64,000 nt of DNA from a virus (IMGVR_UViG_3300050187_000003:75576-139575), one strand, 5' to 3'; counted from the first letter of the stretch, positions 12,720 to 50,139 are shown. The notes: a model not told the origin generated them from the letters alone. Made by a program: numbers and translations.

Positions 12720-13270
12720 GGCGGGGCTATCCCGTCAGGTTGACGGCGGTAGACCGCCAGTAGGTGGCCGATCGTGGACACAGTCGGCAGCCACCCACCA
12801 GCGGCGAGCCCTCTGCCGGCGCCCACGGGCCGCCTTCGCCCGCAGCAGGCGCCGTCCGCGCGGCGCTCAACCTGGACCACCGAGGCCGGCGGCGGGGCTG
12901 CGGTTCGCGCCCGTTCCACCTGCACCCGCTGCTGCCCGACCCACCAGTCGTCATTCCCGTACTGGTCGTCGTCGTGACAGTCGTCGTAGTCGCCCGGAGA
13001 CCAGCCGTCCGGACACAACCGGTCGAGCGCCTGCTCCAGGTCGCCGTCAGGTTCGACCCGCACGTCAAGCTGGTTGCCCTCGCTGCCGGAATCGACGTGT
13101 TCCCGCATGCGCCACACCGCGGCAGCCTGCGCCGCCGTCAGCGCGCCTTCTACGGCGAACGTCCGCCGGCCGGCCGTGATCGCCGCCCCTGCGGCACGCA
13201 GCATCGCCGCCACAACCGTCAGGTCCTCCACGCCAGGAACCGAGATCAGGATGCGTTCGGCGGTCACGCC

Positions 13271-30434: not shown

Positions 30435-31322
30435 ATGGCAACCACCCTCCCCACCAACACCGCACACCCACTTCTCGCCGATCTAGCCAACGCAGAAGAG
30501 AACCGAATCAAACACCTAGCCGCCGAACGCGAACACTTCCAGCAGTACTTCGACACCGTCGAAGCCATCGCAACCCACGCAGCCCACAAGGCAACCAGCC
30601 AGCAACCCGCGTACTGCATACACCCCAACCGGGCCTGGGAATACCTCGGACCATACGAGTGGGACAGCGTCCGCGTGATCGTCGACCCAGATCCGCTGGC
30701 CATCGCCATCAACCTGCCCACCCGTGGTCCCGGATGGGAGCGGTCGCGGGAAACCCGAAATCAGATCTGGGCCGCAATCAGAAGCATCCACCCGCTCGAA
30801 CAGCCAACCCCGCTGCCCGCAAAGCGCTACGTAAACCTCATCGCCGCTGCCGAAAAAGCGGCCGACCTCGTCTCAACCACCCTGGCCATCGGAATCGCCA
30901 ACAACATCATCACCTGGGACACCGGCGAAACCCTGGCCGAAGCCGGGCTACGGATCGCCCGGGATGCCGCCTACCGGATGCGCGCAACCCGGCGGGTAGC
31001 CGCCACAGCGGAGGTGTTCGGCGAAGTCCTTGACATGCTCGACTGGACTGCCCGACCGCCAGCCGACTACGCCCGCGCCTACGTCGACCAGCAGACCGCC
31101 ATCGACCAGGCGGTAGACGCGGCCAGCATCGAATGGGGCATGCCCACCGTGACCGGCGATGAGGCCGCCCGGATCGCATCCATCAGCGCGTCCGGCTGGC
31201 GATCCCACGTCGCCCGCGAAGAGGCGCCACCGAAAGACGCAGGGAAGGGCTGGCGCCGGTCCACGGTCCTCGCGTGGTCACTGGGCCGTACCCGCGCTAG
31301 CCGCGCAGACGGCTGGGACTAA
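30435..31322 (+). CDS. hypothetical protein with a C-terminal AlpA-like HTH
   Basis: VTGDEAARIASISASGWRSHVAREEAPP...WRRSTVLAW; TAGGGT-N7-ATG. Confidence 0.7.
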   Translation: MATTLPTNTAHPLLADLANAEENRIKHLAAEREHFQQYFDTVEAIATHAAHKATSQQPAYCIHPNRAWEYLGPYEWDSVRVIVDPDPLAIAINLPTRGPGWERSRETRNQIWAAIRSIHPLEQPTPLPAKRYVNLIAAAEKAADLVSTTLAIGIANNIITWDTGETLAEAGLRIARDAAYRMRATRRVAATAEVFGEVLDMLDWTARPPADYARAYVDQQTAIDQAVDAASIEWGMPTVTGDEAARIASISASGWRSHVAREEAPPKDAGKGWRRSTVLAWSLGRTRASRADGWD

Positions 31323-33914: not shown

Positions 33915-35687
33915 ATGAGCGGACAGACGCTGGCCTACGACGACCCCGGAGCCACCGGGACGCCCCCGCCTGCCCCCAGCGCGTTCACACGCCTCGCAGA
34001 CTGGTTCACAGCAATCCCCACCTGGATTCTCATCACCCTCGCCGCCACCCTCGCTGTCGTCACCCTCGCGCTCCTCATCGCCGCCGCCGCCATCGCCGTC
34101 AACCGGATTCGCAACCGCGAAACCAGCAAGCGCGAATCCTGGGCCGCCGACAAAGCCATGACCTTCCTCGCGGCTGGCGTCGCCACCGCCGTCACCGGCA
34201 CCGGCATGTGGGCCTTCTTCGCCGACACCCTCGGTGTTCGTAGCCTGCCCCTGCTCGTCGGCCTCTTCGCGTTCTTCGAGATCGCGATGCTCGCCGAAGC
34301 ACTCCGCTCCCGGCTGTTCCGCATCCGCCGCGCCCGCGAAGAATCCACCAACCCCACCGACAGCGAAACCCGAGACGTCGATGTCGACGGCATCGCAGTG
34401 TGGGTACTCGCCATCATCTCCGGCGTCCTCGCAGCCACCCACGAAACCGAGTTCGGCGCCATCGCACTACGCCTCATCGCCCCCGTCATCGCAGCCTGGC
34501 TGTGGGAACGCGGCCTCGTCGGCGAACTCCAGCAGTTCCGCCGCCGCAAGCCCACCAAGAAGATCGCCCTCCGGATCTCCCTGGAACGCGTCCTGGTGTT
34601 CCTCCGGATCGCCGAACCGACCAAACGGGACGTTGACGACGTTGACCGGTCCCGGCGCAGGGCTGCCTACACGGTCGCCGCGTACCGGCTCCACACCCGC
34701 CTCACCGACAAGGCCCCGACCACGCTGGCACGTGTCGCCCGTTGGCGTCTGCGCCGTGCCGGCCTGGCCATCATGACCCGCTACGGGGTCGCCGAACTGC
34801 AGCGCGCCCGCGGCGACGTCGCCGCCCTGTACGGCATGGAGCAGTCGACCGCTCCAGGATCTGTGGCAGGGCTCGCACCATGGGCCACCGGGCACGGCGA
34901 AGTGATCGCCGGCAGCGCGGTGCCGGCAGTGGATGCCGTCGCCGGCCAGGCCGCCATCGAAGCGGCGCCCGGTCCGGTCGAGACGGACCTTCTCGACGAC
35001 TGGGCCGAGGTGGTTCCCGAAACCGCCGTTCGCCCCCACCCGCAGTCGGACTCGCACCTGAACGGCTCGCACCTCGCACATGACATTCGCAGCGGCAAAC
35101 TCGGCGGCGGCAGCACTCGCGACAGCGACTCTCGCAACGTCGATGGAAAACCCGCGCAGCAAGCCGGTGCCATTCGGGCCGCTCTCACCGGCCAGCCGGC
35201 AGCCAACACTACAGCGGTGTCCGCCGGCAACACGGGGGCGAACCGGACTGCGCCGGCCACTGCGAACGGTGCAGCCAAGACGTCCGTGAAACGTCCCGCC
35301 AGCACTACCGCGAAGCCGCTCGACAGCTTCCCTGAGCTTGGCGACGACGCACGCGAAACCGTCGACCGGCTCGCCCGCACCTTCGCCCGCTACCCCAAGG
35401 CGAAGAACCGTGAGCTGGCAAAGCGGGCTGGTCTCACTCTCGCAACCACCAACCGGTACATGGCCCGTGTGCGAGCGGAAGCAGCAGCCCGCGAAGCCGA
35501 GGAAGCGAACGAACAGCACCCGTCAGCCGCGACCGGCAGCAACGCCGAGACCGCGGTCCGCGAAGCCAACGCTCCCGCCAGCCTGCCGCCGCTCGCACCC
35601 CTACCCGCACCGGCACCGCTCGCAGTCGTCGCAGTGAACGGCCACAACCACCACTCGCACACGAAGACCGCGAATGACAACCACTGA
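33915..35687 (+). CDS. AICE/plasmid Spd-like membrane protein (DUF2637-like) with a C-terminal HTH
   Basis: Four to five N-terminal hydrophobic segments, low-complexity linker, AKNRELAKRAGLTLATTNRY. Confidence 0.7.
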   Translation: MSGQTLAYDDPGATGTPPPAPSAFTRLADWFTAIPTWILITLAATLAVVTLALLIAAAAIAVNRIRNRETSKRESWAADKAMTFLAAGVATAVTGTGMWAFFADTLGVRSLPLLVGLFAFFEIAMLAEALRSRLFRIRRAREESTNPTDSETRDVDVDGIAVWVLAIISGVLAATHETEFGAIALRLIAPVIAAWLWERGLVGELQQFRRRKPTKKIALRISLERVLVFLRIAEPTKRDVDDVDRSRRRAAYTVAAYRLHTRLTDKAPTTLARVARWRLRRAGLAIMTRYGVAELQRARGDVAALYGMEQSTAPGSVAGLAPWATGHGEVIAGSAVPAVDAVAGQAAIEAAPGPVETDLLDDWAEVVPETAVRPHPQSDSHLNGSHLAHDIRSGKLGGGSTRDSDSRNVDGKPAQQAGAIRAALTGQPAANTTAVSAGNTGANRTAPATANGAAKTSVKRPASTTAKPLDSFPELGDDARETVDRLARTFARYPKAKNRELAKRAGLTLATTNRYMARVRAEAAAREAEEANEQHPSAATGSNAETAVREANAPASLPPLAPLPAPAPLAVVAVNGHNHHSHTKTANDNH

Positions 35688-36163
35688 CAACCCGCCCCCG
35701 TCGCGAGACGTCGAGCGAACCCGACACCCGTTCGCTCGACGACATAGCGAAGGACGCCGCGCAGATCCTGCGAACCCTCCGCACACCCAAGCCCGCCGAG
35801 AAGGAGAACTGAGAAGTGACCGCGAACCTGCCCGCCCGCCGCACGGGGTCCGCCGTCGCAGTCCGGCGACCCAACCTGCCCGCCGTACCCGCATCGCTGG
35901 ACGACCAGCCGGCGAAGCCCCGACGCAGCCCTGACCTGGTCGACGTCCTCATTGGCTGTGTTGTCGCTGCCATCGCCGCCGCCCCTATCGCCGGGAGCGT
36001 CCTGTGACCAGGGCGACGTTGCCCAGCCGCAACCACGGGCCGCGAACCAGTCGGGTCATCGCCGTAGCCGTCGCATTGCTGTCCGCCGCGCCTCTGACCG
36101 GGCTACTGCTGTCCCGGATCACCTACTGACCGACACAAACGACAGAAGGAGGACGACGAGCAG

Positions 36164-36424
36164 ATGCCGTCGAAGCTGTACATCCTGCGGATCCAGAACG
36201 GAACCCGCGCGGTCACGCCGGAAACCGCGCTGGAAGCGCTTGACTTCGACCGCCCAGACGCGGTGAAAGACCTGCTCAGGCGGCATCTGCTCGCGGCAGC
36301 AGAACGAGACGGAAAGTCGAGGTCGGAGGCGCACCTGTACTACCTGGCAGTGCACGAACGCCACCGCGACGGCCGTCCAGTAAACACTGCAATGGCCTAT
36401 TTTGTCCTGCCGGTGGAGTTGTGA
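36164..36424 (+). CDS. hypothetical protein
   Basis: AAGGAGG RBS; in the transfer operon. Confidence 0.65.
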   Translation: MPSKLYILRIQNGTRAVTPETALEALDFDRPDAVKDLLRRHLLAAAERDGKSRSEAHLYYLAVHERHRDGRPVNTAMAYFVLPVEL

Positions 36425-36627
36425 TGAACCTCGTCCGACCCCGCAGGAAAGCCACCAACCGGGTCACCTACCACCAGCAGCTGATCCGCACGGCACCCAC
36501 CCCGAGGGTTTCGCTGCGGAGAGCCGTGGAATGGCTGATGTCCGAGGCACACCACGGCAACATCCCATCCCTGATCAAAGAGGTGACCGCGCTGTCGGTC
36601 CGCGAAAACGAAAGGAGCCGACAGTGA
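36421..36627 (+). CDS. hypothetical protein
   Basis: Coupled ORF. Confidence 0.55.
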   Translation: MMNLVRPRRKATNRVTYHQQLIRTAPTPRVSLRRAVEWLMSEAHHGNIPSLIKEVTALSVRENERSRQ

Positions 36628-37046
36628 CGGAAAGTGTCGTAGCACTCGGCCATGGCAGCCCCGGCAACGGGATGCAGAGGCCGCGTGCGTCTGCGCGCGC
36701 ACGCATGAAAGCAAGCGTAACCCGCCGTGATCGGCTTCGAAGAATCCGGGCCGCCAACCCCGCCGCCAAAATCCGACACATCGGACGCGTCATGTACCTC
36801 GACGCAGCCGACTCGTGGATCGTCAACACCCACAGTCCGGCACCGAAAACCGTGTGGCGCACCGACTACAACTCCGCAGTCCCAGGCGCCTACCGGCCAT
36901 TCACCACCTGGTGTCGCATCTACCGCTACCCGGCGGTCGTGTTCGGCGCGACTCTCGACGGAGCCAAATGGCTCCTCATCCACCCCCTACGGGGACCACT
37001 CACGATCACCGCCGCAGCCGCTGGCGCGGCCACCATCCTCACCTGA
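36624..37046 (+). CDS. hypothetical protein
   Basis: AAGGAG RBS, GTG start. Confidence 0.55.
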   Translation: MTESVVALGHGSPGNGMQRPRASARARMKASVTRRDRLRRIRAANPAAKIRHIGRVMYLDAADSWIVNTHSPAPKTVWRTDYNSAVPGAYRPFTTWCRIYRYPAVVFGATLDGAKWLLIHPLRGPLTITAAAAGAATILT

Positions 37047-41981: not shown

Positions 41982-42037
41982 CCAGCCCCCACCCGTTGAT
42001 GGGTGGGGGCGCATGCGGTGAAGGGCGGCGTTGAGGG

Positions 42038-42385
42038 CTAGAGGAGGTAGCCGTCCGCGGCGAGCCTCTCCCGCACGATCGTCCGGATGGCGTCAGCCTC
42101 CACCGGCACGCCAGCGCGGCGGTCGACGTCGGTGCGGTCGGCGGCCCACCGGGCCAGCGCGTCTCTGATTGCCGGCGTGATCCGGGTTTCGGCCCGGCCA
42201 ACCCAGCTTGCTGACGGCCGTTTGGCTGCCCACTGCGTGATGGTGGACCGCAGCCACAGTGGGCTACGGCTGCCTGGTGGGCTGTCCGCCGGGGGCAGGT
42301 CACCCCGGGAACGCATCCGGTGCACAGACCGGATTTTGATCCCCAGCAGCGCCGCGACGTCGGCGCTTGTCAACATGTCATCCAT
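42038..42385 (-). CDS. AlpA/MerR-like HTH fused to an RHH-like C-terminal module
   Basis: MLTSADVAALLGIKIRSVHRMRSRGDLP...W; the C-terminus is nearly identical to that of 46824-47021; leaderless TAGTCT-N6-ATG. Confidence 0.8.
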   Translation of the reverse strand: MDDMLTSADVAALLGIKIRSVHRMRSRGDLPPADSPPGSRSPLWLRSTITQWAAKRPSASWVGRAETRITPAIRDALARWAADRTDVDRRAGVPVEADAIRTIVRERLAADGYLL

Positions 42386-43289: not shown

Positions 43290-43826
43290 ATGCACATCCC
43301 AGCGGAGTACTGCCCCAGCTGTGGGGAGACACATCACCCCATGCAACCGGGCGGCCTGTGTGCACGGTGCCGCACGCACCGTGCGGCGATGCTCGACCAG
43401 GTGATCACCGCACCAGACGCCGTCCACACCACGGACGCTCCGACCCGTGACACACGCACCGTCATCGCCGCACGCCTCGCCGACATTTTCGACGCCGCGG
43501 AGTTGGCCCAGCTCCGGAAGGACTGCATCGGACTCATCGACGTCGATGACGACGAGCAGTCCGTGGAGCTCGCCGAGCTCGCCGACGCCCTGTGGTTGGC
43601 CGCGCGCGTCGATCAGGAGGAGGCGGCCGCGGCGTGGCGTCTCGCACTGCGCCTCGACCGTGCACTCGACGCCGCCCACCTGGCCGCCCTGGCCGCCGCG
43701 CAAGGGCCGTGCGCGGTGATCGACGCACACGCCAGTGTGGTGCGGCGGCTCGGGGACGCGGTGGTCGCCGCCACTGATCGGGCGGTCAGGTTGGATCGTC
43801 TCGCGGCTGGCGAGGCGTCCCAGTGA
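43290..43826 (+). CDS. hypothetical protein with an N-terminal zinc finger
   Basis: YCPSCG...LCARC; GAGGA RBS. Confidence 0.65.
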   Translation: MHIPAEYCPSCGETHHPMQPGGLCARCRTHRAAMLDQVITAPDAVHTTDAPTRDTRTVIAARLADIFDAAELAQLRKDCIGLIDVDDDEQSVELAELADALWLAARVDQEEAAAAWRLALRLDRALDAAHLAALAAAQGPCAVIDAHASVVRRLGDAVVAATDRAVRLDRLAAGEASQ

Positions 43827-43887
43827 GCGCCGTGTGGCGCGGGTGGTGGCCCGGATGCCGCGACTGGCAGCCCCGAGAGGACACCCC

Positions 43888-44721
43888 ATGATCCGGCCAC
43901 CGGTGCCGTACTTCGGCGGGAAGATGACCATCGGTCCGCGAATCGCCACCCTGTTGCCCCGACACCGCCACTACGTTGAGCCCTACGCCGGCAGCCTCGC
44001 CGTCTTGCTCGCCAAGCCGCGATCCGGACACGAGACCGTCAACGACCTCGACGGCGACCTGATGGCCTTCTGGCGCGTCCTTCGGGAACGCCCGCAGGAG
44101 CTGGCACGAGCCTGCGCGCTGACCCCGCACTCCCGCGCTGAGCTGACCGCCGCCCACGAACCCGCGACCGACCAGCTCGAGGTGGCCCGGCGCGTCTGGG
44201 TTGAGCTCTCGCAAGGCCGGGCCGGCACCAGGCGGCGGACCGGTTGGCGGCACTACGTCAAGACCGCAGCCAACCCGACCACCTCGATGCCTGACCACCT
44301 CGACGCCTACATAGACCGCATGTACGACGCCGCTGAACGGCTCGCGGGCGTCTCTCTGGAGTCGATGCCCGCACTCGATCTGGTTGCGAAGTACGGCGCT
44401 GACCCGGATGTCCTCCTCTATGTTGACCCGCCGTACCTCGGGTCGACGCGTTGTCGTTCGTGGGATGGCTACCACCACGAGATGCGCGGCGACGCAGAAC
44501 ACCGCGAGCTGGCCAGCGTTCTACGGGCCTGCCAGTCCGCAGTGGTGCTGTCCGGCTACCCCAGCGCGCTGTATGAGGAGCTGTACGTCGGGTGGGATCG
44601 GCACACGATCGCGTCCGGCACCGGGCAGGGCGCCGGCACCTGGGCGAACCGCACCGAGGTGCTGTGGTCCAACCGGCCGCTCCAGTTGGAGCCGGCGCTC
44701 TTCACCCTGGGCGGCTCGTGA
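43888..44721 (+). CDS. DNA adenine methyltransferase, Dam-like D12 class
   Basis: PYFGGK, YVEPYAGS, NDLDGDL, YVDPPY. Confidence 0.93.
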   Translation: MIRPPVPYFGGKMTIGPRIATLLPRHRHYVEPYAGSLAVLLAKPRSGHETVNDLDGDLMAFWRVLRERPQELARACALTPHSRAELTAAHEPATDQLEVARRVWVELSQGRAGTRRRTGWRHYVKTAANPTTSMPDHLDAYIDRMYDAAERLAGVSLESMPALDLVAKYGADPDVLLYVDPPYLGSTRCRSWDGYHHEMRGDAEHRELASVLRACQSAVVLSGYPSALYEELYVGWDRHTIASGTGQGAGTWANRTEVLWSNRPLQLEPALFTLGGS

Positions 44722-45311: not shown

Positions 45312-45764
45312 GTGCGATCAAGAGCCCGGCCGGTGTTCACCCCCGACGACGATGAGCCGTTGCCGGATGAGGCCGCGATCCGGTCACGGATGCTGATGCA
45401 GGACGTCCCGAGGTTCACCGAGGTCCATCGATATCGGGCGGTGGTCGTGGAGAACGTCACCGACGTGCTCAAGTGGGAGCACCTCGGCGAATGGGCACTG
45501 ACCGACCCGCTTCCGGCACAGACCTCGGTAGCCGGTGACGCCCTGATCGGCACCCGCGTGCCGGTGCAGGACTGCACGTTCCGGATGCTCACCGTCGACG
45601 AGATCCGCGGTGGGATGGCGTTCCGGCCCGGCTACGTGCTACTCGGCACCTCGATTCGGGACAAGGTCCGGATGCTCGGCAACGCCGTCACCCCACCGGT
45701 CGCCCGCGACCTGGTGGCCGCCGTGGTCGAAGCGATCACCGGCGAACCCATCGACCCGACATGA
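45312..45764 (+). pseudogene. remnant of a C5-cytosine DNA methyltransferase
   Basis: Retains VVENV (motif VI) and FRMLTVDEI...MAF...RMLGNAVTPPVA (motifs IX/X); lacks motif I, the catalytic PC and the central region. Confidence 0.75.
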
Positions 45765-46194
45765 CCGGCCCGCGCCCGGCCGCTCTCGTGTGCGCGGCCG
45801 GGCGCGGCATTCCGCTACACCCGGCCGCCGCCGCGGGCGGGCACACCACCCACCCCGGATGCGACCCCGCCACCCGGCCACCGGTCGGCCGGCGGGTGGC
45901 CCGGGGGGAATGCCTGGGCGCACCTGGCGGAGGTCACCCGGCGACTCGGCAAGGGCGGGGACGCGAACGACCCGGCCTACCTGGCCGCCAACCGGGCTGT
46001 GATCGCGGCCGAGGGGGACCTGCCCTGGTGGCGCCGCTGACCTGACCAAAAGAGGGGCCCGGCATCACACCGGGCCCCTCACTCCCCACGAAGGAGCACC
46101 CACCATGCTAGTAACCCCACGCCACCCGCCGGGGGCAGCACCGACCGAGCGCCCCGAACCATTGCGGTCCGGGGCGCTCTGCTGTGTCCGGGGG

Positions 46195-46290
46195 TCAGGT
46201 GTCCCCGCCGCGACCGGCCCGCCGTGACGCCGCCTGCTGGTGGTGGTAGCCCAGCGCCACCCAGTTGCCGTTCTCGACCGCTGGCCGAGG
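46195..46290 (-). pseudogene. orphan 3' fragment homologous to the end of the Cas11c-like gene at 47624-48037
   Basis: Encodes ENGNWVALGYHHQQAASRRAG versus GNGNWVTLGYHHQQAASQRTG. Confidence 0.75.
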
Positions 46291-46302
46291 TTGGGGTTGG
46301 GG

Positions 46303-46331
46303 TTGCACAAATAAACGCCGTGGTTTATTCT
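46303..46331 (+). promoter_or_regulatory. promoter with a palindromic operator in the spacer
   Basis: TTGCAC-N17-TATTCT; AATAAAC-gccgtg-GTTTATT. Confidence 0.75.
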
Positions 46332-46374
46332 TGGCTAAGCCCGCAGGGAGCGGACCAAAGCTAAGGAGACTGAC

Positions 46375-46824
46375 ATGGCCCGGATGACCCCGAAGCAAGA
46401 AGCCCTCATCCTCAGCCTCTGCCGCCGCCTCGACGGCGGCAGCTACCGGTACGTGGAACAGGCAGCCCACCTCCTGCCGATCGGCCGCAACGCGGCCAAG
46501 GCCATGACCGTGTCCGACGCGAGCCTCTGCATTGATCACCTGCAAGCCGCCGCCGCCCCGCTGGCGGACCAGCCCGAGGCGACGACCGTGCAGCCCACCC
46601 CGGTATCGACGCCGGGCGGCCCGGACGCGGCCACCCTGATCGCCATGCTTGGTCGGCAGGTCACCGTGACCTGGACCAACTCGGCCGGCGAGACGATCGA
46701 GTGGCACGGCTCGGTGCAGACGCTGGACGTGTCCGAAACGGACGGCACGCCCAGGCTGAACCTGCTGGTCGCCGGTCGGACCCGCCAGGTCCGGGCCAAC
46801 GCCCTCGACACCTGGATCGTCTGA
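46375..46824 (+). CDS. hypothetical cargo protein of cassette 1
   Basis: 149-aa ORF, TAAGGAG RBS. Confidence 0.8.
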   Translation: MARMTPKQEALILSLCRRLDGGSYRYVEQAAHLLPIGRNAAKAMTVSDASLCIDHLQAAAAPLADQPEATTVQPTPVSTPGGPDAATLIAMLGRQVTVTWTNSAGETIEWHGSVQTLDVSETDGTPRLNLLVAGRTRQVRANALDTWIV

Positions 46825-47021
46825 TGACCGGACGCCGCCGCGGTCGCCCATCACGAGGCGACCGTGTCGAAGTGCGGCTCGACCCGGCGATCCGTGCCGC
46901 ACTCAGGGCCTGGTCGGCCGGCAGGTCTGACGTCGACCGACGTGACGGCGTGCCGGTGGAGGCTGACGCCATCCGGACGATCGTGCGGGAGAGGCTCGCC
47001 GCGGACGGCCACCTGCACTAG
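46824..47021 (+). CDS. small RHH-like regulator
   Basis: MTGRRRGRPSRGDRVEVRLDPAIRAALRAW; AT-hook-like RGRP followed by an RHH-like strand-helix pattern. Confidence 0.7.
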   Translation: MTGRRRGRPSRGDRVEVRLDPAIRAALRAWSAGRSDVDRRDGVPVEADAIRTIVRERLAADGHLH

Positions 47022-47024
47022 TTT

Positions 47025-47174
47025 CGGCGGTGAAGGGCGGCAACCGAGGTTGCCGCCCTTCACTGATGCGCCCCCAACCCTGAGGGTTGGGGGCGCATCC
47101 TGCTGTCCGGGGTCTGTCACGGCCACGTCAGCAGAGGGTGATCCCGCACCCCTGCCACCACCAGCTCATCCCGG
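47025..47174 (+). repeat. 150-bp direct repeat, copy 1, containing two strong hairpins
   Basis: Identical to 48077-48226; 15-bp stem at 47030-47063 and 16-bp stem at 47065-47099. Confidence 0.95.
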
Positions 47175-47186
47175 CGTGCGCCATCA

Positions 47187-47231
47187 AGCACGCTTGACAC
47201 CCCGTCAAGCGTGCTATAAGGTAGGGGTATG
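47187..47231 (+). promoter_or_regulatory. leaderless promoter with a 12-bp-arm operator
   Basis: TTGACA-N17-TAAGGT-N6-ATG; AGCACGCTTGAC-N5-GTCAAGCGTGCT. Confidence 0.85.
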
Positions 47232-47627
47232 GACAACGAAACCGTGAACATCCCCCGACCTGACCGCAGCGGAGCCTACCTGCCGTTGCGTGGCACCGCC
47301 CTCACCGCCCTCACCTGGTGGGAGCACAGCACCACTCAGTTTGCCGCGCCGGGCGGGGAACCCACCGCAGCAGACAGGCGGGCCGCGGCCGATCTTGAAA
47401 AAGGCGCGAGCCCTACCCTCGCCGCGCTGATCAACACCGCGCGCCGGCACGTCGCCGGCAACCCAGACGACTACTCGGCGAGGCGCTGGCGCCTCGCCGA
47501 GGCGCTCGCCGAGCACCTGGATCGGCTCCAACCGATCCAGCAGGTCATACAGGTCCCCGCTGCCGAGTCCGACCGGTGCGGCCACGGCTGGCTGTTCAGC
47601 GAGCCGTGCGATGGGTGCGAAGCATGA
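47229..47627 (+). CDS. hypothetical cargo protein with a C-terminal CxH...CxxC motif
   Basis: 132 aa; RCGHGWLFSEPCDGC. Confidence 0.75.
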   Translation: MDNETVNIPRPDRSGAYLPLRGTALTALTWWEHSTTQFAAPGGEPTAADRRAAADLEKGASPTLAALINTARRHVAGNPDDYSARRWRLAEALAEHLDRLQPIQQVIQVPAAESDRCGHGWLFSEPCDGCEA

Positions 47628-48037
47628 AGCGGACGGCGCCCGTGCTGCTCGGAGTCGACCGAGAAGCCGAGAACAACCCGGCCTACCTGTGCGGTCGGCT
47701 CGCCTCTGTGCTGGAAGATCTGGAACTGGCCGCCACCGGTGATCGCACAGCCTGGTACCAGCTGTTCCCTCAAGCCATCGCCAACGGCGCTATCGTGCTC
47801 CGGTGGGCAGACCCGACCGGCCGAGTCACGACGTGGCTTACCAAGTTGGACGCCGTACTCGCCAGCCACTACCTAGGTGAGATCACCCGGCTCACCACGC
47901 GGATTGGCAACCCTGGAACGCTGGCCGGGGCCGGCAACGGCAACTGGGTGACGCTGGGCTACCACCACCAGCAGGCAGCATCACAGCGGACCGGTCACCG
48001 CGGGAACGTGCTGCTCCCGGGAGGAGGGGAGCGGTGA
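47624..48037 (+). CDS. stand-alone homologue of the type I-C Cas8c C-terminal domain (Cas11c small subunit)
   Basis: VDREAENNPAYLCGRLASVLE...AIAN...WLTKL...HYLGEI...IGNPGTL...LGYHHQ matches the recalled Cas8c/Cas11c signature LD..PYL.GRL..VLE...A.AN...KL...EI...P..L...IGYYHQ. Confidence 0.75.
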   Translation: MKRTAPVLLGVDREAENNPAYLCGRLASVLEDLELAATGDRTAWYQLFPQAIANGAIVLRWADPTGRVTTWLTKLDAVLASHYLGEITRLTTRIGNPGTLAGAGNGNWVTLGYHHQQAASQRTGHRGNVLLPGGGER

Positions 48038-48076
48038 CCGTTGACGGTGGTGACACCGCCCCGGAGGAGGTCGTGA

Positions 48077-48226
48077 CGGCGGTGAAGGGCGGCAACCGAG
48101 GTTGCCGCCCTTCACTGATGCGCCCCCAACCCTGAGGGTTGGGGGCGCATCCTGCTGTCCGGGGTCTGTCACGGCCACGTCAGCAGAGGGTGATCCCGCA
48201 CCCCTGCCACCACCAGCTCATCCCGG
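48077..48226 (+). repeat. 150-bp direct repeat, copy 2
   Basis: Identical to 47025-47174; interrupts an ORF start (MTVDGGD) homologous to that of 49447. Confidence 0.95.
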
Positions 48227-48255
48227 AGGAGGCGCAGGGACGGCCACCCTCATCA

Positions 48256-48291
48256 AGCACGCTTGACGGGATGTCAAGCGTGCTTTAGGCT
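48256..48291 (+). promoter_or_regulatory. promoter with the same 12-bp-arm operator as at 47187
   Basis: TTGACG-N17-TAGGCT; AGCACGCTTGAC-N5-GTCAAGCGTGCT. Confidence 0.85.
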
Positions 48292-48344
48292 ACTGGCATG
48301 TCTTCGGCAAGCCGCTCGCCGAAAACCCGTAGAAAGGGGAAAAC

Positions 48345-49007
48345 ATGAAAACGCGCTACGGACTGGTCCCAGGGTGGGGAACCTGGGAGGGAGTTCCAAA
48401 AGTCGTTGAGCTGGTCGACGGCTGGTGGTGGGGGCGGGAAACCCGCCCCGGCCAGACGGCCAAACGGGGCGTAGACCTGCCCCAAAACCAGGTCATCGAC
48501 CTGGGCGAATTCTCCTCCTGGGAGGCGGCCCAGGCCGCAGCCCAGGCCACGACCTACAGCGCCCGGCGCCGGGGCTCCGTCCTCGCAACCTGGCGCGACG
48601 GTGGCCCCCGGGTCGTGCCGGCCACCGAGCCGGCAGAGCCCGGCGACCAGCCCCTGGGCTGGCACGAATCCGTCGCCGCCGCCCGGGCCGCGGCCACCGC
48701 CGCGTTTCGGGCCAGTGTCCCCCACCTCCCACGGGACCAGGCGCAGGATGTTGTGCATGACATCCTGCGCTATGACCGGGGCAATGCGCCCCGCGGTTTG
48801 ATCGAAAACCTCGCCGGCCCACTGGGCGCCACCCCGGCCAGGGTGACGGCCGGAGAACTGCGGTGGGAGGTGAGCCTCCAACGGTGGCTCACCACCCTGC
48901 CCGACCTCCAGCAGGTGATGCTGGAGGAGCACTACAACCCCCGCGCGGGAACGTGCTGCTCCCGCGCCGTGCTGCTCAGCGCGGAGGAGGCGCAGGGATG
49001 GCTCTGA
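48345..49007 (+). CDS. hypothetical cargo protein of cassette 3
   Basis: 220 aa, AAAGGGG RBS. Confidence 0.75.
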   Translation: MKTRYGLVPGWGTWEGVPKVVELVDGWWWGRETRPGQTAKRGVDLPQNQVIDLGEFSSWEAAQAAAQATTYSARRRGSVLATWRDGGPRVVPATEPAEPGDQPLGWHESVAAARAAATAAFRASVPHLPRDQAQDVVHDILRYDRGNAPRGLIENLAGPLGATPARVTAGELRWEVSLQRWLTTLPDLQQVMLEEHYNPRAGTCCSRAVLLSAEEAQGWL

Positions 49008-49450
49008 ACCGGGAAATGGTCGGGGTGGCCCACGCCATCGCCGACGCCATCGACGCCACCGACCTCGACGACATCCCATGGTCGGTCGTCTATGTTGGGC
49101 GGGGTACCCCGTCCATGGGGGAACTCCGTCCCCATCGCCCCATCACCGCCCCCCAGCTGCGTGAGCTGCTGGCACCGGTGACGGCCGAACTGCGCGGCCT
49201 CAGCGAGGCTGAGGCCGTTGACGGGTCTCTGACGGATCGAACTCGTTTTTTCCTGCACGCCGCGCCCAAACTCCAGCACGAACCCGGCTGGGCGCTCACT
49301 GACACGCCGCTCGGAGGGCCACTCCGGGCCGCGGCCTGGTACTGGGAGGTGGCGTACGGACACCTCACCGTCGGAGACCTCGCTGAGGCTGCGAAAAACC
49401 TTGCTGAGGCCGTGGCCGAGCTGGCCACGATCGGAGGAGGGGAGCGGTGA
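48998..49450 (+). CDS. hypothetical cargo protein of cassette 3
   Basis: GGAGG RBS; ends in GGGER like 47624-48037. Confidence 0.7.
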   Translation: MALNREMVGVAHAIADAIDATDLDDIPWSVVYVGRGTPSMGELRPHRPITAPQLRELLAPVTAELRGLSEAEAVDGSLTDRTRFFLHAAPKLQHEPGWALTDTPLGGPLRAAAWYWEVAYGHLTVGDLAEAAKNLAEAVAELATIGGGER

Positions 49451-49722
49451 CCGTTGACGACGGCGACGCCGAGAAGTTCAAGGAGTTGGTCACCGCACTC
49501 AGGGCCTGGTCGGCCGGCAGGGTCGACCGGGGCATGCTGGGGCTGATCCGCGCCGCCGAGAAGCAGCGCGCCGACGCTGCGTCGGCCGCGCGGAACGCCG
49601 CGGCCCGGCGTGACATGTGGATTCGGCAGGCACTGAACATGGGTGTGTCTGCCGTCGAGCTGGCCGACGCCGCTGGGGTGCGGCCAGCGCGGATCTACCA
49701 GATCCGCGACAGGCGCCGCTAA
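49447..49722 (+). CDS. small HTH regulator in an Aca-like position
   Basis: WIRQALNMGVSAVELADAAGVRPARIYQIRD. Confidence 0.8.
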   Translation: MTVDDGDAEKFKELVTALRAWSAGRVDRGMLGLIRAAEKQRADAASAARNAAARRDMWIRQALNMGVSAVELADAAGVRPARIYQIRDRRR

Positions 49723-49863
49723 GCGCCGCCTATAGCGCCTGGCGCCGGACCCAAGGCGGGGTTGGTGCTCAACAGGCGGGGCCGCGCTTACCAGCGCTCA
49801 CGGCCGGAGCCGTACCGGCGGCACAATCCGAGACCTAGCAACCCAGCCGGTCAGGCACGGCCC

Positions 49864-50139
49864 TCAGGTGGTGAGGCTGGCCAGGGTCAGCGGGTTGACC
49901 GCGCACGCGTCATCCGGTAGCCGCTCCGCCTCGGTGGTCCAGGACGCGGGGCCGTCGACGGTCACGAGGGCGCCGCCCGGCCAGGTCGCGGGCGTCGGGT
50001 CCGTGCCTTCGGGGACAGCCACCCGGGCCAGGTCGTACTCGACGAGGGTCTCGCCGCACCATCCGCACCGCTGCCGCATGTATCGATCGCTGATGGTGAT
50101 GGCGTGGGAGGCGATGTGAGTAACGGTCACGTGCGCCAC
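49864..50139 (-). CDS. hypothetical protein at the end of the late operon
   Basis: MAHVTVTHIA...QRCGWCG. Confidence 0.55.
   Translation of the reverse strand: MAHVTVTHIASHAITISDRYMRQRCGWCGETLVEYDLARVAVPEGTDPTPATWPGGALVTVDGPASWTTEAERLPDDACAVNPLTLASLTT

What the first reader, a model, noticed from the sequence alone, without database searches (positions are those of the whole stretch)
46290..49730. Tandem array of interchangeable promoter-cargo-regulator cassettes held together by a 150-bp double-hairpin repeat
Seen: three consecutive units, each with a near-consensus sigma70 promoter overlapped by a palindrome (46303, 47194, 48263), one or two small orphan genes, and a terminal small DNA-binding gene (RHH at 46824, a truncated start at 48034, HTH at 49447). 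Units 2 and 3 share the operator AGCACGCTTGAC-N5-GTCAAGCGTGCT and an identical 150-bp upstream block with 15- and 16-bp stems. They also share a 27-bp junction, GGAGGAGGGGAGCGGTGACCGTTGACG (48020 and 49433), so both last cargo genes end in GGGER coupled to the regulator start. Inference: this is a recombinational cassette-exchange hotspot for anti-defence genes (an acr/aca island). The neighbours of the Cas11c-like gene (46375, 47229, 48345, 48998) become Acr candidates by association, and the HTH at 49447 probably represses units 2 and 3.
Basis: partly seen in the sequence, partly recalled or inferred. Interest (0 to 1): 0.78.

Follow-up and report, generated by a model that had tools for sequence, protein, structure and literature searches.

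The report
Twin self-regulated phage counter-defence operons
A phage of high-GC bacteria has two adjacent small operons that share a terminator, promoter-operator and regulator-gene frame but carry unrelated cargo, one a copy of a CRISPR subunit; this fits the known anti-CRISPR operon design and yields untested inhibitor candidates, not a new kind of system.

Summary
The 150-bp block (47025-47174 = 48077-48226) is identical. The 29-bp palindromic operator occurs exactly twice in the 173-kb record. The junction in front of the HTH gene is duplicated, and the cargo genes are unrelated to one another.

New here:
- Both operator-promoters sit so that the ATG is the likely transcript start (leaderless).
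- The HTH (49447) belongs to an actinophage family whose genes carry a homologous, strongly conserved promoter-operator. In that family a variable N-terminal domain takes the place of separate cargo. This supports the HTH-operator pairing and modular exchange.
- The small 46824 protein is an RHH of the type fused to Cas11c-like domains elsewhere. Stand-alone Cas11c-like proteins are often fused to RHH or Xis-type HTH domains.
- The 150-bp block is a general terminator module of this record, not specific to the array.

Limits: unit 1 uses a different promoter and regulator. No close relative of this locus could be retrieved, so cargo exchange at this site is inferred from internal relics only. 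Only the Cas11c-like gene has an anti-defence rationale.

Best reading: acr-aca-like operons, one regulator repressing two promoters, as described for Aca proteins in 2026. The scan has found Cas11c-HTH cassettes before on other DNA.

The parts
46052..46080 (.). GC-rich hairpin that ends the upstream operon (T-run on the minus strand)
   Evidence: sequence
46201..46279 (-). Inverted relic of the 3' end of a Cas11c-like gene, 86-89% identical to 47929-48007
   Evidence: tblastn 64% over 33 aa
46303..46331 (+). P1: -35 at 46303-46308, 17-nt spacer, -10 TATTCT at 46326-46331. AT-rich 7-N6-7 palindrome at 46310-46316/46323-46329; its inverted pair is unique in the 173-kb record
46375..46824 (+). 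Unit 1 cargo, orf149, preceded by a Shine-Dalgarno site; no family match
46824..47021 (+). Unit 1 regulator: 65-aa RHH-type protein whose start overlaps the orf149 stop
   Evidence: hhalign probability 94%, E 1.4e-7, to RHH N-termini fused to Cas11c-like domains. One of those, P0026, passes the Pfam RHH_1 cut-off. Its own Pfam scan gave nothing
47025..47174 (+). Terminator module, copy A: hairpins at 47030-47063 and 47065-47099, then a 75-nt tail
47187..47222 (+). Operator copy 1 (47187-47215) overlapping P2: -35 TTGACA at 47194-47199, 17-nt spacer, -10 TAAGGT at 47217-47222, then 6 nt to the ATG
47229..47627 (+). Unit 2 cargo, orf132; predicted leaderless; no family match
47624..48037 (+). 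Unit 2 cargo: Cas11c-like protein (Cas8c C-terminal domain). ATGA overlap with orf132. The tail beyond residue 119 comes from the junction
   Evidence: Pfam PF09709 E 7.5e-8, 31.9 bits against a 27-bit cut-off; PADLOC Cas8c
48020..48075 (+). Junction copy 1 (48020-48058) and the truncated start of an HTH gene (from 48034). The frame runs into the terminator module
48077..48226 (+). Terminator module, copy B, identical to copy A
48256..48291 (+). Operator copy 2 (48256-48284) overlapping P3: -35 TTGACG at 48263-48268, 17-nt spacer, -10 TAGGCT at 48286-48291, then 6 nt to the ATG
48298..48348 (+). 16-codon leaderless upstream ORF whose stop overlaps the orf220 start (ATGA). Its ATG is in register with the orf132 ATG of unit 2
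   Evidence: (family D5)
48345..49007 (+). Unit 3 cargo, orf220; no family match. Its 3' end holds a 21-nt exact copy (48944-48964) of the Cas11c-like gene tail (47999-48019), read in another frame
48998..49450 (+). Unit 3 cargo, orf150; no family match; bracketed by GGAGGAGG-type junctions
49447..49722 (+). HTH regulator, 91 aa: long helix followed by a C-terminal HTH ending in the family motif ARIYQIRD. Junction copy 2 lies at 49433-49471
   Evidence: phrog_686 E 5e-6; alignment A4; AF2 model pLDDT 82.6
41985..42385 (-). Paralogue outside the array: an Xis-type HTH fused to the RHH-like domain of 46824 (76% over 51 aa), followed by a diverged copy of the terminator hairpin

Best explanation
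The region is the accessory end of the phage's early arm. It consists of three small self-contained transcription units.

Units 2 and 3 are two copies of one acr-aca-style frame. Its order is: twin-hairpin terminator, a promoter whose -35 box and spacer lie inside a 12-N5-12 palindrome, a leaderless start, cargo genes joined by overlapping stops and starts, and a conserved ribosome-site junction leading into a small HTH gene. Only unit 3 keeps the HTH gene; unit 2 keeps just its first codons.

Inferred mechanism:
- Host RNA polymerase fires both promoters early.
- The HTH dimer then binds both palindromes, which are centred near -28, and shuts both operons down. Unit 3 is repressed in cis and unit 2 in trans.
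- The Cas11c-like cargo most likely acts as a faulty small subunit of type I-C Cascade. The other cargo proteins are candidates by association only.

Unit 1 is a separate operon of the same logic, with an AT-rich palindrome and an RHH regulator.

The array arose by duplication of the frame and replacement of its contents, through recombination at short shared junctions.

Shown: the anatomy, the repeats, the domain identities, and the conservation of a homologous promoter-operator in front of related HTH genes. Inferred: transcription starts, binding, repression and anti-defence function.
For: - Repeats and operator statistics.
- Promoter geometry is identical in both copies, with the ATG 6 nt after the -10 box.
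- The cargo proteins are mutually unrelated but look coding.
- Seven of the 12 loci fetched only by HTH homology carry a homologous promoter in front of the HTH-bearing gene. Its left element differs by 1 nt from the operator arm here. In six colinear loci the motif columns are 95-96% conserved and the spacer 58%. The L017 version is colinear with P2, including the ATG position.
- In those relatives the content between promoter and HTH varies: at least four N-terminal domain types, plus an A+B combination.
- The Cas11c-like gene passes the Pfam cut-off.
- Among 573 profile hits the best ~30 are short proteins. At least 16 clusters carry a C-terminal Xis-type HTH and at least 3 an N-terminal RHH. 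46824 matches those RHH N-termini.
- Relics of earlier joins lie at 46201-46279, 48034-48075, 48216-48244 and 48944-48964. Five of the 14 GGAGGAGG sites in 173 kb lie within 1.4 kb.
- Literature: one Aca can repress neighbouring operons through repeated inverted repeats, RHH Aca14 exists, and co-opted cas genes occur in such operons (PMC13551039). AcrIB4 is a homologue of the last 90 residues of Cas8b and works as a faulty Cascade subunit (bioRxiv 10.1101/2023.06.24.545427).
Against: - No close relative of this locus was retrievable, so ongoing cargo exchange here is not demonstrated.
- orf149, orf132, orf220 and orf150 match nothing in Pfam, PHROGs, PADLOC or NCBIfam, and the two searched against PDB sequences (orf220, orf150) match nothing significant there.
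- The HTH matches no PDB sequence, including solved Aca proteins, at E<=10. Its fold hits are generic HTH domains only.
- The host and its CRISPR type are unknown.
- The E. coli-type promoter scan calls nothing.
- In the relatives the frame encodes a single fused protein, which could equally be an ordinary regulator with a sensor domain.
- The terminator module is not specific to the array.
Confidence: 0.55

Rival explanations
1. This is an ordinary mosaic 'moron' region. A single local duplication of a terminator-promoter-regulator segment was followed by decay. The HTH is a general phage regulator, and the cargo are ordinary early or lysogeny-expressed genes with no counter-defence role.
For: - Four of the five intact cargo genes have no functional signal.
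- Related HTH genes lie next to lysis or tail genes, or at prophage ends, where morons are common.
- The terminator module also occurs elsewhere in the record.
- The 100% identity of the 150-bp block suggests a recent event.
Against: - The cargo of the two units is completely unrelated while the regulatory frame is kept. The operator arms are 24/24 identical against 0/5 in the spacer, which points to selection on a shared regulator site.
- One cargo is a Cas subunit copy of a class shown to be anti-CRISPR.
- Cas11c-like domains are recurrently fused to RHH or HTH domains.
Confidence: 0.25
2. The units are toxin-antitoxin or prophage-encoded defence/exclusion modules. The RHH and HTH proteins are autoregulating antitoxins, and the upstream genes are toxins or effectors.
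For: - The layout fits: small overlapping gene pairs, a DNA-binding protein with a palindrome in the promoter, and a location in a prophage accessory region.
- The paralogue 42038-42385 hits a PADLOC 'mad1' model at E 1.2e-5.
Against: - No toxin or defence family matches any cargo.
- The DNA-binding gene is last in each operon, not first.
- A lone Cas11c-like domain is not a defence system.
Confidence: 0.1
3. The tandem arrangement is an assembly artefact: two alleles or two related phages chained through the 150-bp exact repeat.
For: - The record has odd self-repeats: 1-99 equals 36570-36668, its end resembles 34961-36422, and a 449-bp inverted repeat abuts the array.
- It holds three serine recombinases and one tyrosine recombinase, so it contains several elements.
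- Read depth could not be checked.
Against: - The join between the truncated HTH start and repeat copy B is unique sequence, only 90% like the full HTH gene. It cannot come from chaining identical sequence.
- The same proteins occur in an independent Logan assembly. There the HTH lies on a 1,707-bp contig. That is exactly the length expected for a k=31 unitig running from the last 30 nt of repeat copy B (48197) to the first 30 nt of the 41-nt repeat (49903). This is my arithmetic; I did not see the contig.
- Diverged third and fourth copies of the module exist.
Confidence: 0.05

Closest known systems
acr-aca operons in which one Aca represses its own and neighbouring anti-defence operons through repeated inverted repeats (Feussner et al., NAR 2026, PMC13551039; Aca2 autoregulation, PMC6765145)
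   Same: - A small DNA-binding gene is last in the operon.
- An inverted repeat overlaps the promoter.
- The same repeat stands in front of an adjacent operon that lacks its own regulator gene.
- Both HTH and RHH regulators occur.
- Co-opted cas genes appear among the cargo.
   Different: - The HTH here matches no described Aca family by the searches available.
- The host is a high-GC actinobacterium.
- The transcripts are predicted to be leaderless, so there is no 5' UTR for the RNA-level control described for Aca1 and Aca2.
- Binding and repression are untested.
AcrIB4 and other viral cas-derived anti-CRISPRs (Katz et al., 'Diverse viral cas genes antagonize CRISPR immunity', bioRxiv 10.1101/2023.06.24.545427)
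   Same: A stand-alone homologue of the C-terminal (small-subunit) part of Cas8, encoded on a mobile element outside any CRISPR locus.
   Different: - The subtype is I-C, not I-B.
- There is no sequence relation to AcrIB4.
- Function is untested.
- Here the gene sits with other cargo in a duplicated regulatory frame.
Self-regulating Acr-Aca fusion proteins (AcrIIA1, AcrIIA13-15, AcrIF24; PMC10901769, PMC9001735)
   Same: Relatives of this HTH, and relatives of this Cas11c-like protein, join an effector-like domain to an autoregulator-type DNA-binding domain in one protein.
   Different: In this window effector and regulator are separate genes. The fused relatives are uncharacterised.
Mosaic module exchange at conserved gene-boundary sequences in temperate phages (lambdoid 'linker' sequences; actinophage mosaicism) - from general knowledge, not checked in a paper here
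   Same: Short stretches of 21-39 nt at 90-100% identity lie exactly at gene boundaries, between otherwise unrelated genes. Relics of earlier joins are present.
   Different: Here the shared boundaries are ribosome-site junctions plus a regulator frame, concentrated within 1.4 kb.

Membership tests
acr-aca operon (Aca-regulated anti-defence operon) | A small HTH or RHH DNA-binding protein is encoded in the operon, usually last | tested here: met
   HTH 49447-49722: phrog_686 E 5e-6; C-terminal HTH in the AF2 model. RHH 46824-47021: hhalign probability 94% to RHH N-termini.
acr-aca operon (Aca-regulated anti-defence operon) | An inverted repeat lies within or overlaps the operon promoter | tested here: met
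   The 12-N5-12 palindrome covers the -35 box and the spacer of P2 and P3. A 7-N6-7 palindrome covers the spacer and -10 of P1.
acr-aca operon (Aca-regulated anti-defence operon) | The regulator binds the repeat and represses the operon | not testable with these tools
   Indirect only: a homologous, footprint-like conserved promoter-operator precedes 7 of 12 related HTH genes.
acr-aca operon (Aca-regulated anti-defence operon) | At least one upstream gene is a validated Acr or its homologue | tested here: inconclusive
   No Acr library was available. The Cas11c-like gene is analogous, not homologous, to AcrIB4. The other cargo genes have no hits.
Known Aca families (Aca1-Aca14) | Sequence membership in a described family | tested here: not met
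   No PDB sequence (solved Aca proteins included) at E<=10. Pfam gives only weak HTH_3 at E 0.087. Foldseek hits are generic HTH domains at E~1. No dedicated Aca HMM set was on hand.
Cas11c / Cas8c C-terminal domain (PF09709) | Match to the C-terminal ~110 positions of the Cas_Csd1 profile above the curated cut-off | tested here: met
   Residues 14-119 match profile positions 448-557 of 559, 31.9 bits against a 27-bit cut-off. PADLOC Cas8c models agree.
Ribbon-helix-helix regulators (CopG/Arc/MetJ) | Profile match to an RHH family | tested here: inconclusive
   46824 has no direct Pfam hit. It aligns at 94% probability with N-termini of which one passes RHH_1.
Integron-type cassette array | An adjacent integron integrase and attC-type recombination sites between cassettes | tested here: not met
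   The nearest tyrosine recombinase is 52 kb away and the serine recombinases are at least 46 kb away. The repeat follows the regulator genes and also occurs outside the array. attC structure was not modelled.
Intrinsic (hairpin plus U-tract) terminator | A GC-rich hairpin followed by a run of T | tested here: not met
   Two perfect 16-bp hairpins, but no T-run. Tail-less hairpin terminators are common in Actinobacteria (general knowledge), so a terminator function remains likely.
Toxin-antitoxin module | A recognisable toxin family next to the DNA-binding antitoxin | tested here: not met
   No toxin or defence family for any cargo in Pfam, NCBIfam or PADLOC.

The most novel reading that the evidence does not exclude
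The promoter-operator plus C-terminal HTH frame is a general plug-in expression platform of actinobacterial phages. Effector modules would be swapped into one self-repressing frame, either as fused N-terminal domains or as separate genes. Recombination would be channelled to the conserved ribosome-site junctions, so that phages trade counter-defence effectors without a dedicated recombinase. This window would be the first case in which two loaded frames stand in tandem under one regulator.
Probability: 0.2. Interest if true: 0.7.

Novelty: new member of a known kind. Interest (0 to 1): 0.45.

Why it matters
If the reading holds, the locus gives several things:
- A candidate new Aca-type regulator family with a defined 29-bp operator, for phages of Actinobacteria, where almost no anti-CRISPR biology is known.
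- A candidate type I-C inhibitor of the 'faulty Cascade subunit' kind.
- Four further small proteins to screen as counter-defence factors.
- A search handle for finding more such effectors in actinophage genomes: the conserved promoter-operator together with the invariant HTH tail.

It would not change concepts. One regulator controlling neighbouring anti-defence operons, and cas-derived anti-CRISPRs, are both already described.

Tried and rejected
Searches for relatives of this locus:
- Close relatives of the locus were sought without success. The HTH has only itself among 5.8 billion clusters.
- The operator and hairpin patterns are absent from IMG/VR and GTDB genomes.
- orf220, the Cas11c-like gene and the HTH have no tblastn match in 50,697 phage records.
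- orf220 and orf150 have no relatives in IMG/VR.
- Phages with a 59-70% identical endolysin carry none of the array genes.
- Genome and metagenome scans with the Cas11c alignment returned only distant full-length Cas8c genes. L034 is a phage-borne complete I-C system.
- The Cas11c-HTH fusion family is absent from IMG/VR.
The contexts of P0003, P0004, P0006, P0017 and P0026 could therefore not be read.

Readings considered and rejected:
- Small RNA or CRISPR-repeat mimic (Racr) for the 150-bp block: no Rfam family, CRISPR repeat families included, at E<=1. The stems are twice as long as CRISPR repeat stems. The third, weaker stem is not kept in the 87% copy.
- Integron-like array: no nearby integrase.
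- Paralogy between the cargo of units 2 and 3: none.

No lead obtained:
- ESM Atlas search for orf220.
- Fold search for the HTH.

Full report
**Setting**

The window is bases 75576-139575 of a 172,930-bp IMG/VR virus record with 68% G+C. Upstream of the finding lie a Dam methylase (43735-44721) and a truncated Dcm-type methylase fragment (45312-45764). Downstream, on the other strand, lie lysis and tail genes. The finding therefore sits at the end of the rightward early arm, where it meets the late arm head-on. The record holds one tyrosine and three serine recombinases, and none is within about 46 kb of the array.

**Observation**

- **150-bp block:** exact copies at 47025-47174 and 48077-48226. 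Similarity continues at 86.6% to 47231/48300.
- **Hairpins:** each copy forms two perfect 16-bp hairpins. The whole stretch folds far better than shuffles (z = -8.4).
- **Operator:** the 29-bp palindrome, with arms AGCACGCTTGAC and its complement and a 5-nt spacer, occurs twice at up to 3 mismatches, with none expected by chance. It occurs nowhere else in the record. The arms are identical in both copies and all five spacer bases differ. That is the pattern expected for a site read by a dimeric protein.
- **Junction:** duplicated in front of the HTH gene, 39 nt at 90% identity.
- **Cargo:** the cargo ORFs have a coding-type codon-position G+C pattern and are unrelated to each other.

**Added anatomy**

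- **Promoter geometry:** in both operator-promoters the -35 box (TTGACA, TTGACG) lies inside the left arm. A TANNNT-type -10 box follows after 17 nt, and an ATG follows exactly 6 nt later. Both transcripts are therefore predicted to be leaderless.
- **First ORFs:** in unit 2 that ATG starts orf132. In unit 3 it starts a 16-codon ORF whose stop overlaps the start of orf220.
- **Operator position:** with these starts the palindrome is centred near -28, a repressor position.
- **Promoter scan:** an E. coli-type promoter scan calls none of the three promoters. 'Near-consensus' therefore applies only to the -35 boxes of P2 and P3.
- **Unit 1 differs:** it has a weak -35, an AT-rich 7-N6-7 palindrome whose inverted pair is unique in the record, a normal ribosome site and an RHH-type last gene.

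**Traces of rearrangement**

Short shared stretches lie exactly at gene boundaries.

- An inverted relic of a Cas11c-like 3' end lies at 46201-46279.
- The truncated HTH start lies at 48034-48075.
- A 21-nt exact copy of the Cas11c-gene tail sits inside the 3' end of orf220 (47999-48019 = 48944-48964).
- A 29-nt near-copy of the orf150 start region follows repeat copy B (48216-48244 resembles 48974-49002).
- A 29-nt exact patch is shared by the RHH and HTH genes (46897-46925 = 49493-49521).
- Five of the 14 GGAGGAGG sites on this strand of the 173-kb record fall within 48020-49433, each at a junction.

**The 150-bp block is not special to the array**

An 87% copy follows a small membrane-protein gene at record position 12738-12884. 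A more diverged copy of its second hairpin follows the paralogous gene 42038-42385. It is best read as a general tail-less terminator module of these phages.

**The regulators**

*HTH protein (49447).*
- It hits phrog_686. It models as a long helix plus a C-terminal HTH (pLDDT 82.6).
- It matches no PDB sequence and only generic HTH folds.
- Twelve IMG/VR loci found by HTH homology alone share its last ~37 residues, with ARIYQIRD invariant.
- In seven of them the HTH-bearing gene is preceded by a homologous promoter. An element differing by one base from our operator arm is fused to the -35 box, and a second palindromic copy lies at the -10 box. In six colinear loci these parts are 95-96% conserved against 58% in the spacer.
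- The L017 version is colinear with P2 down to the position of the ATG.
- This is comparative support for pairing this HTH family with this promoter-operator type.
- In those relatives the space between promoter and HTH is filled by variable N-terminal domains of one protein. There are at least four types, and one protein combines two of them. The frame is thus conserved and its content is modular.

*The 46824 protein.* It has no direct Pfam hit. It aligns at 94% probability with RHH N-termini, one of which passes the Pfam RHH_1 cut-off.

**The Cas11c-like cargo**

- Residues 14-119 match the last 110 positions of the Cas8c profile above the curated cut-off.
- A profile search of 1.84 billion representatives gave 573 hits. 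The best ~30 are short proteins, ahead of full-length Cas8c.
- At least 16 of these clusters carry a C-terminal Xis-type HTH extension. At least three carry an N-terminal RHH. One of the three, P0003, is 64% identical to the protein here.
- Recurrent fusion to autoregulator-type domains is what is seen for self-regulating anti-CRISPRs.
- The scan has met Cas11c-HTH cassettes on other DNA before.
- AcrIB4, a homologue of the last 90 residues of Cas8b, inhibits type I-B as a faulty Cascade subunit.

**Comparison with known systems**

Feussner et al. (2026) describe Aca proteins whose inverted repeats stand before their own operon and before neighbouring anti-defence operons. They also describe an RHH Aca and co-opted cas genes in such operons. 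Units 2 and 3 are an instance of that design. The regulator family, host group and leaderless layout are new; the principle is not.

**What could not be done**

- No close relative of this locus was retrievable from any collection.
'Interchangeable cargo' at this site therefore rests on internal relics and on the modular relatives.
- Read depth could not be checked.
- Three points argue against an assembly artefact. The relic-to-repeat join is unique sequence. The same proteins occur in an independent Logan assembly. The 1,707-bp contig that carries the HTH there has exactly the length expected between the two flanking repeats for k = 31. That last point is my calculation; I did not see the contig.

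**Verdict**

This is a new member of a known kind, of moderate interest.

Noticed in passing
window 45334-45782 and record 74686-75131 (just left of the window): A 449-bp inverted repeat at 99.3% identity, covering a truncated Dcm-type methylase fragment, about 46 kb apart. It brackets the whole early arm and ends just before the array. It could mediate inversion or mark an assembly join.
   Followed up: partly
whole record (G000): Bases 1-99 equal 36570-36668 exactly. The record's end (168823-172930) resembles 34961-36422 at 87-94%. Three large serine recombinases (9.8, 66.8 and 171.9 kb) and one tyrosine recombinase (69.1 kb) are present. The 'single virus' record probably holds more than one element.
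   Followed up: partly
window 49874-49914 and record 30749-30789: A 41-nt exact direct repeat at the 3' ends of two minus-strand genes, 94.7 kb apart. The gene 49864-50079(-) encodes a small CxxC protein.
   Followed up: no
proteins P0004, P0007, P0012, P0015, P0017, P0019, P0024 and others; P0003, P0006, P0026: A family of stand-alone Cas11c-like proteins from high-GC sequence. They are fused either to a C-terminal Xis-type HTH that ends in an RPGRGARTD-like motif, or to an N-terminal RHH preceded by a GRPG motif. They score better against the profile than genuine Cas8c.
   Followed up: partly
L009:7650-8237, L010:5470-5949, L011:5270-5745, L012:7505-8114, L013:7365-8162, L017:7120-8117, L018:7650-8114: A conserved twin-operator promoter precedes a modular protein with an invariant C-terminal HTH. 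The N-terminal domains are shuffled: acidic type A, type B, A+B in one protein, a third type, and a GNAT-like type. None has a match in cultured phage records.
   Followed up: partly
window 45764-46041: A frame stays open for 92 codons after the Dcm-fragment stop, with no start codon. It contains a 22-nt stretch (45962-45983) that is 91% identical to the NPAYL-motif region of the Cas11c-like gene (47668-47689). This may be another relic.
   Followed up: no
window 42038-42385 (-): A protein joining an Xis-type HTH to the RHH-like domain of 46824. It hits the PADLOC model 'mad1' (E 1.2e-5) and Xis_Gifsy_1 (E 0.004, far below that model's curated cut-off).
   Followed up: partly
L034:5758-9830: A 124-kb viral contig carries a complete type I-C effector set (Cas5c, a 619-aa Cas8c, Cas7c) next to CRISPR-like repeats.
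   Followed up: no
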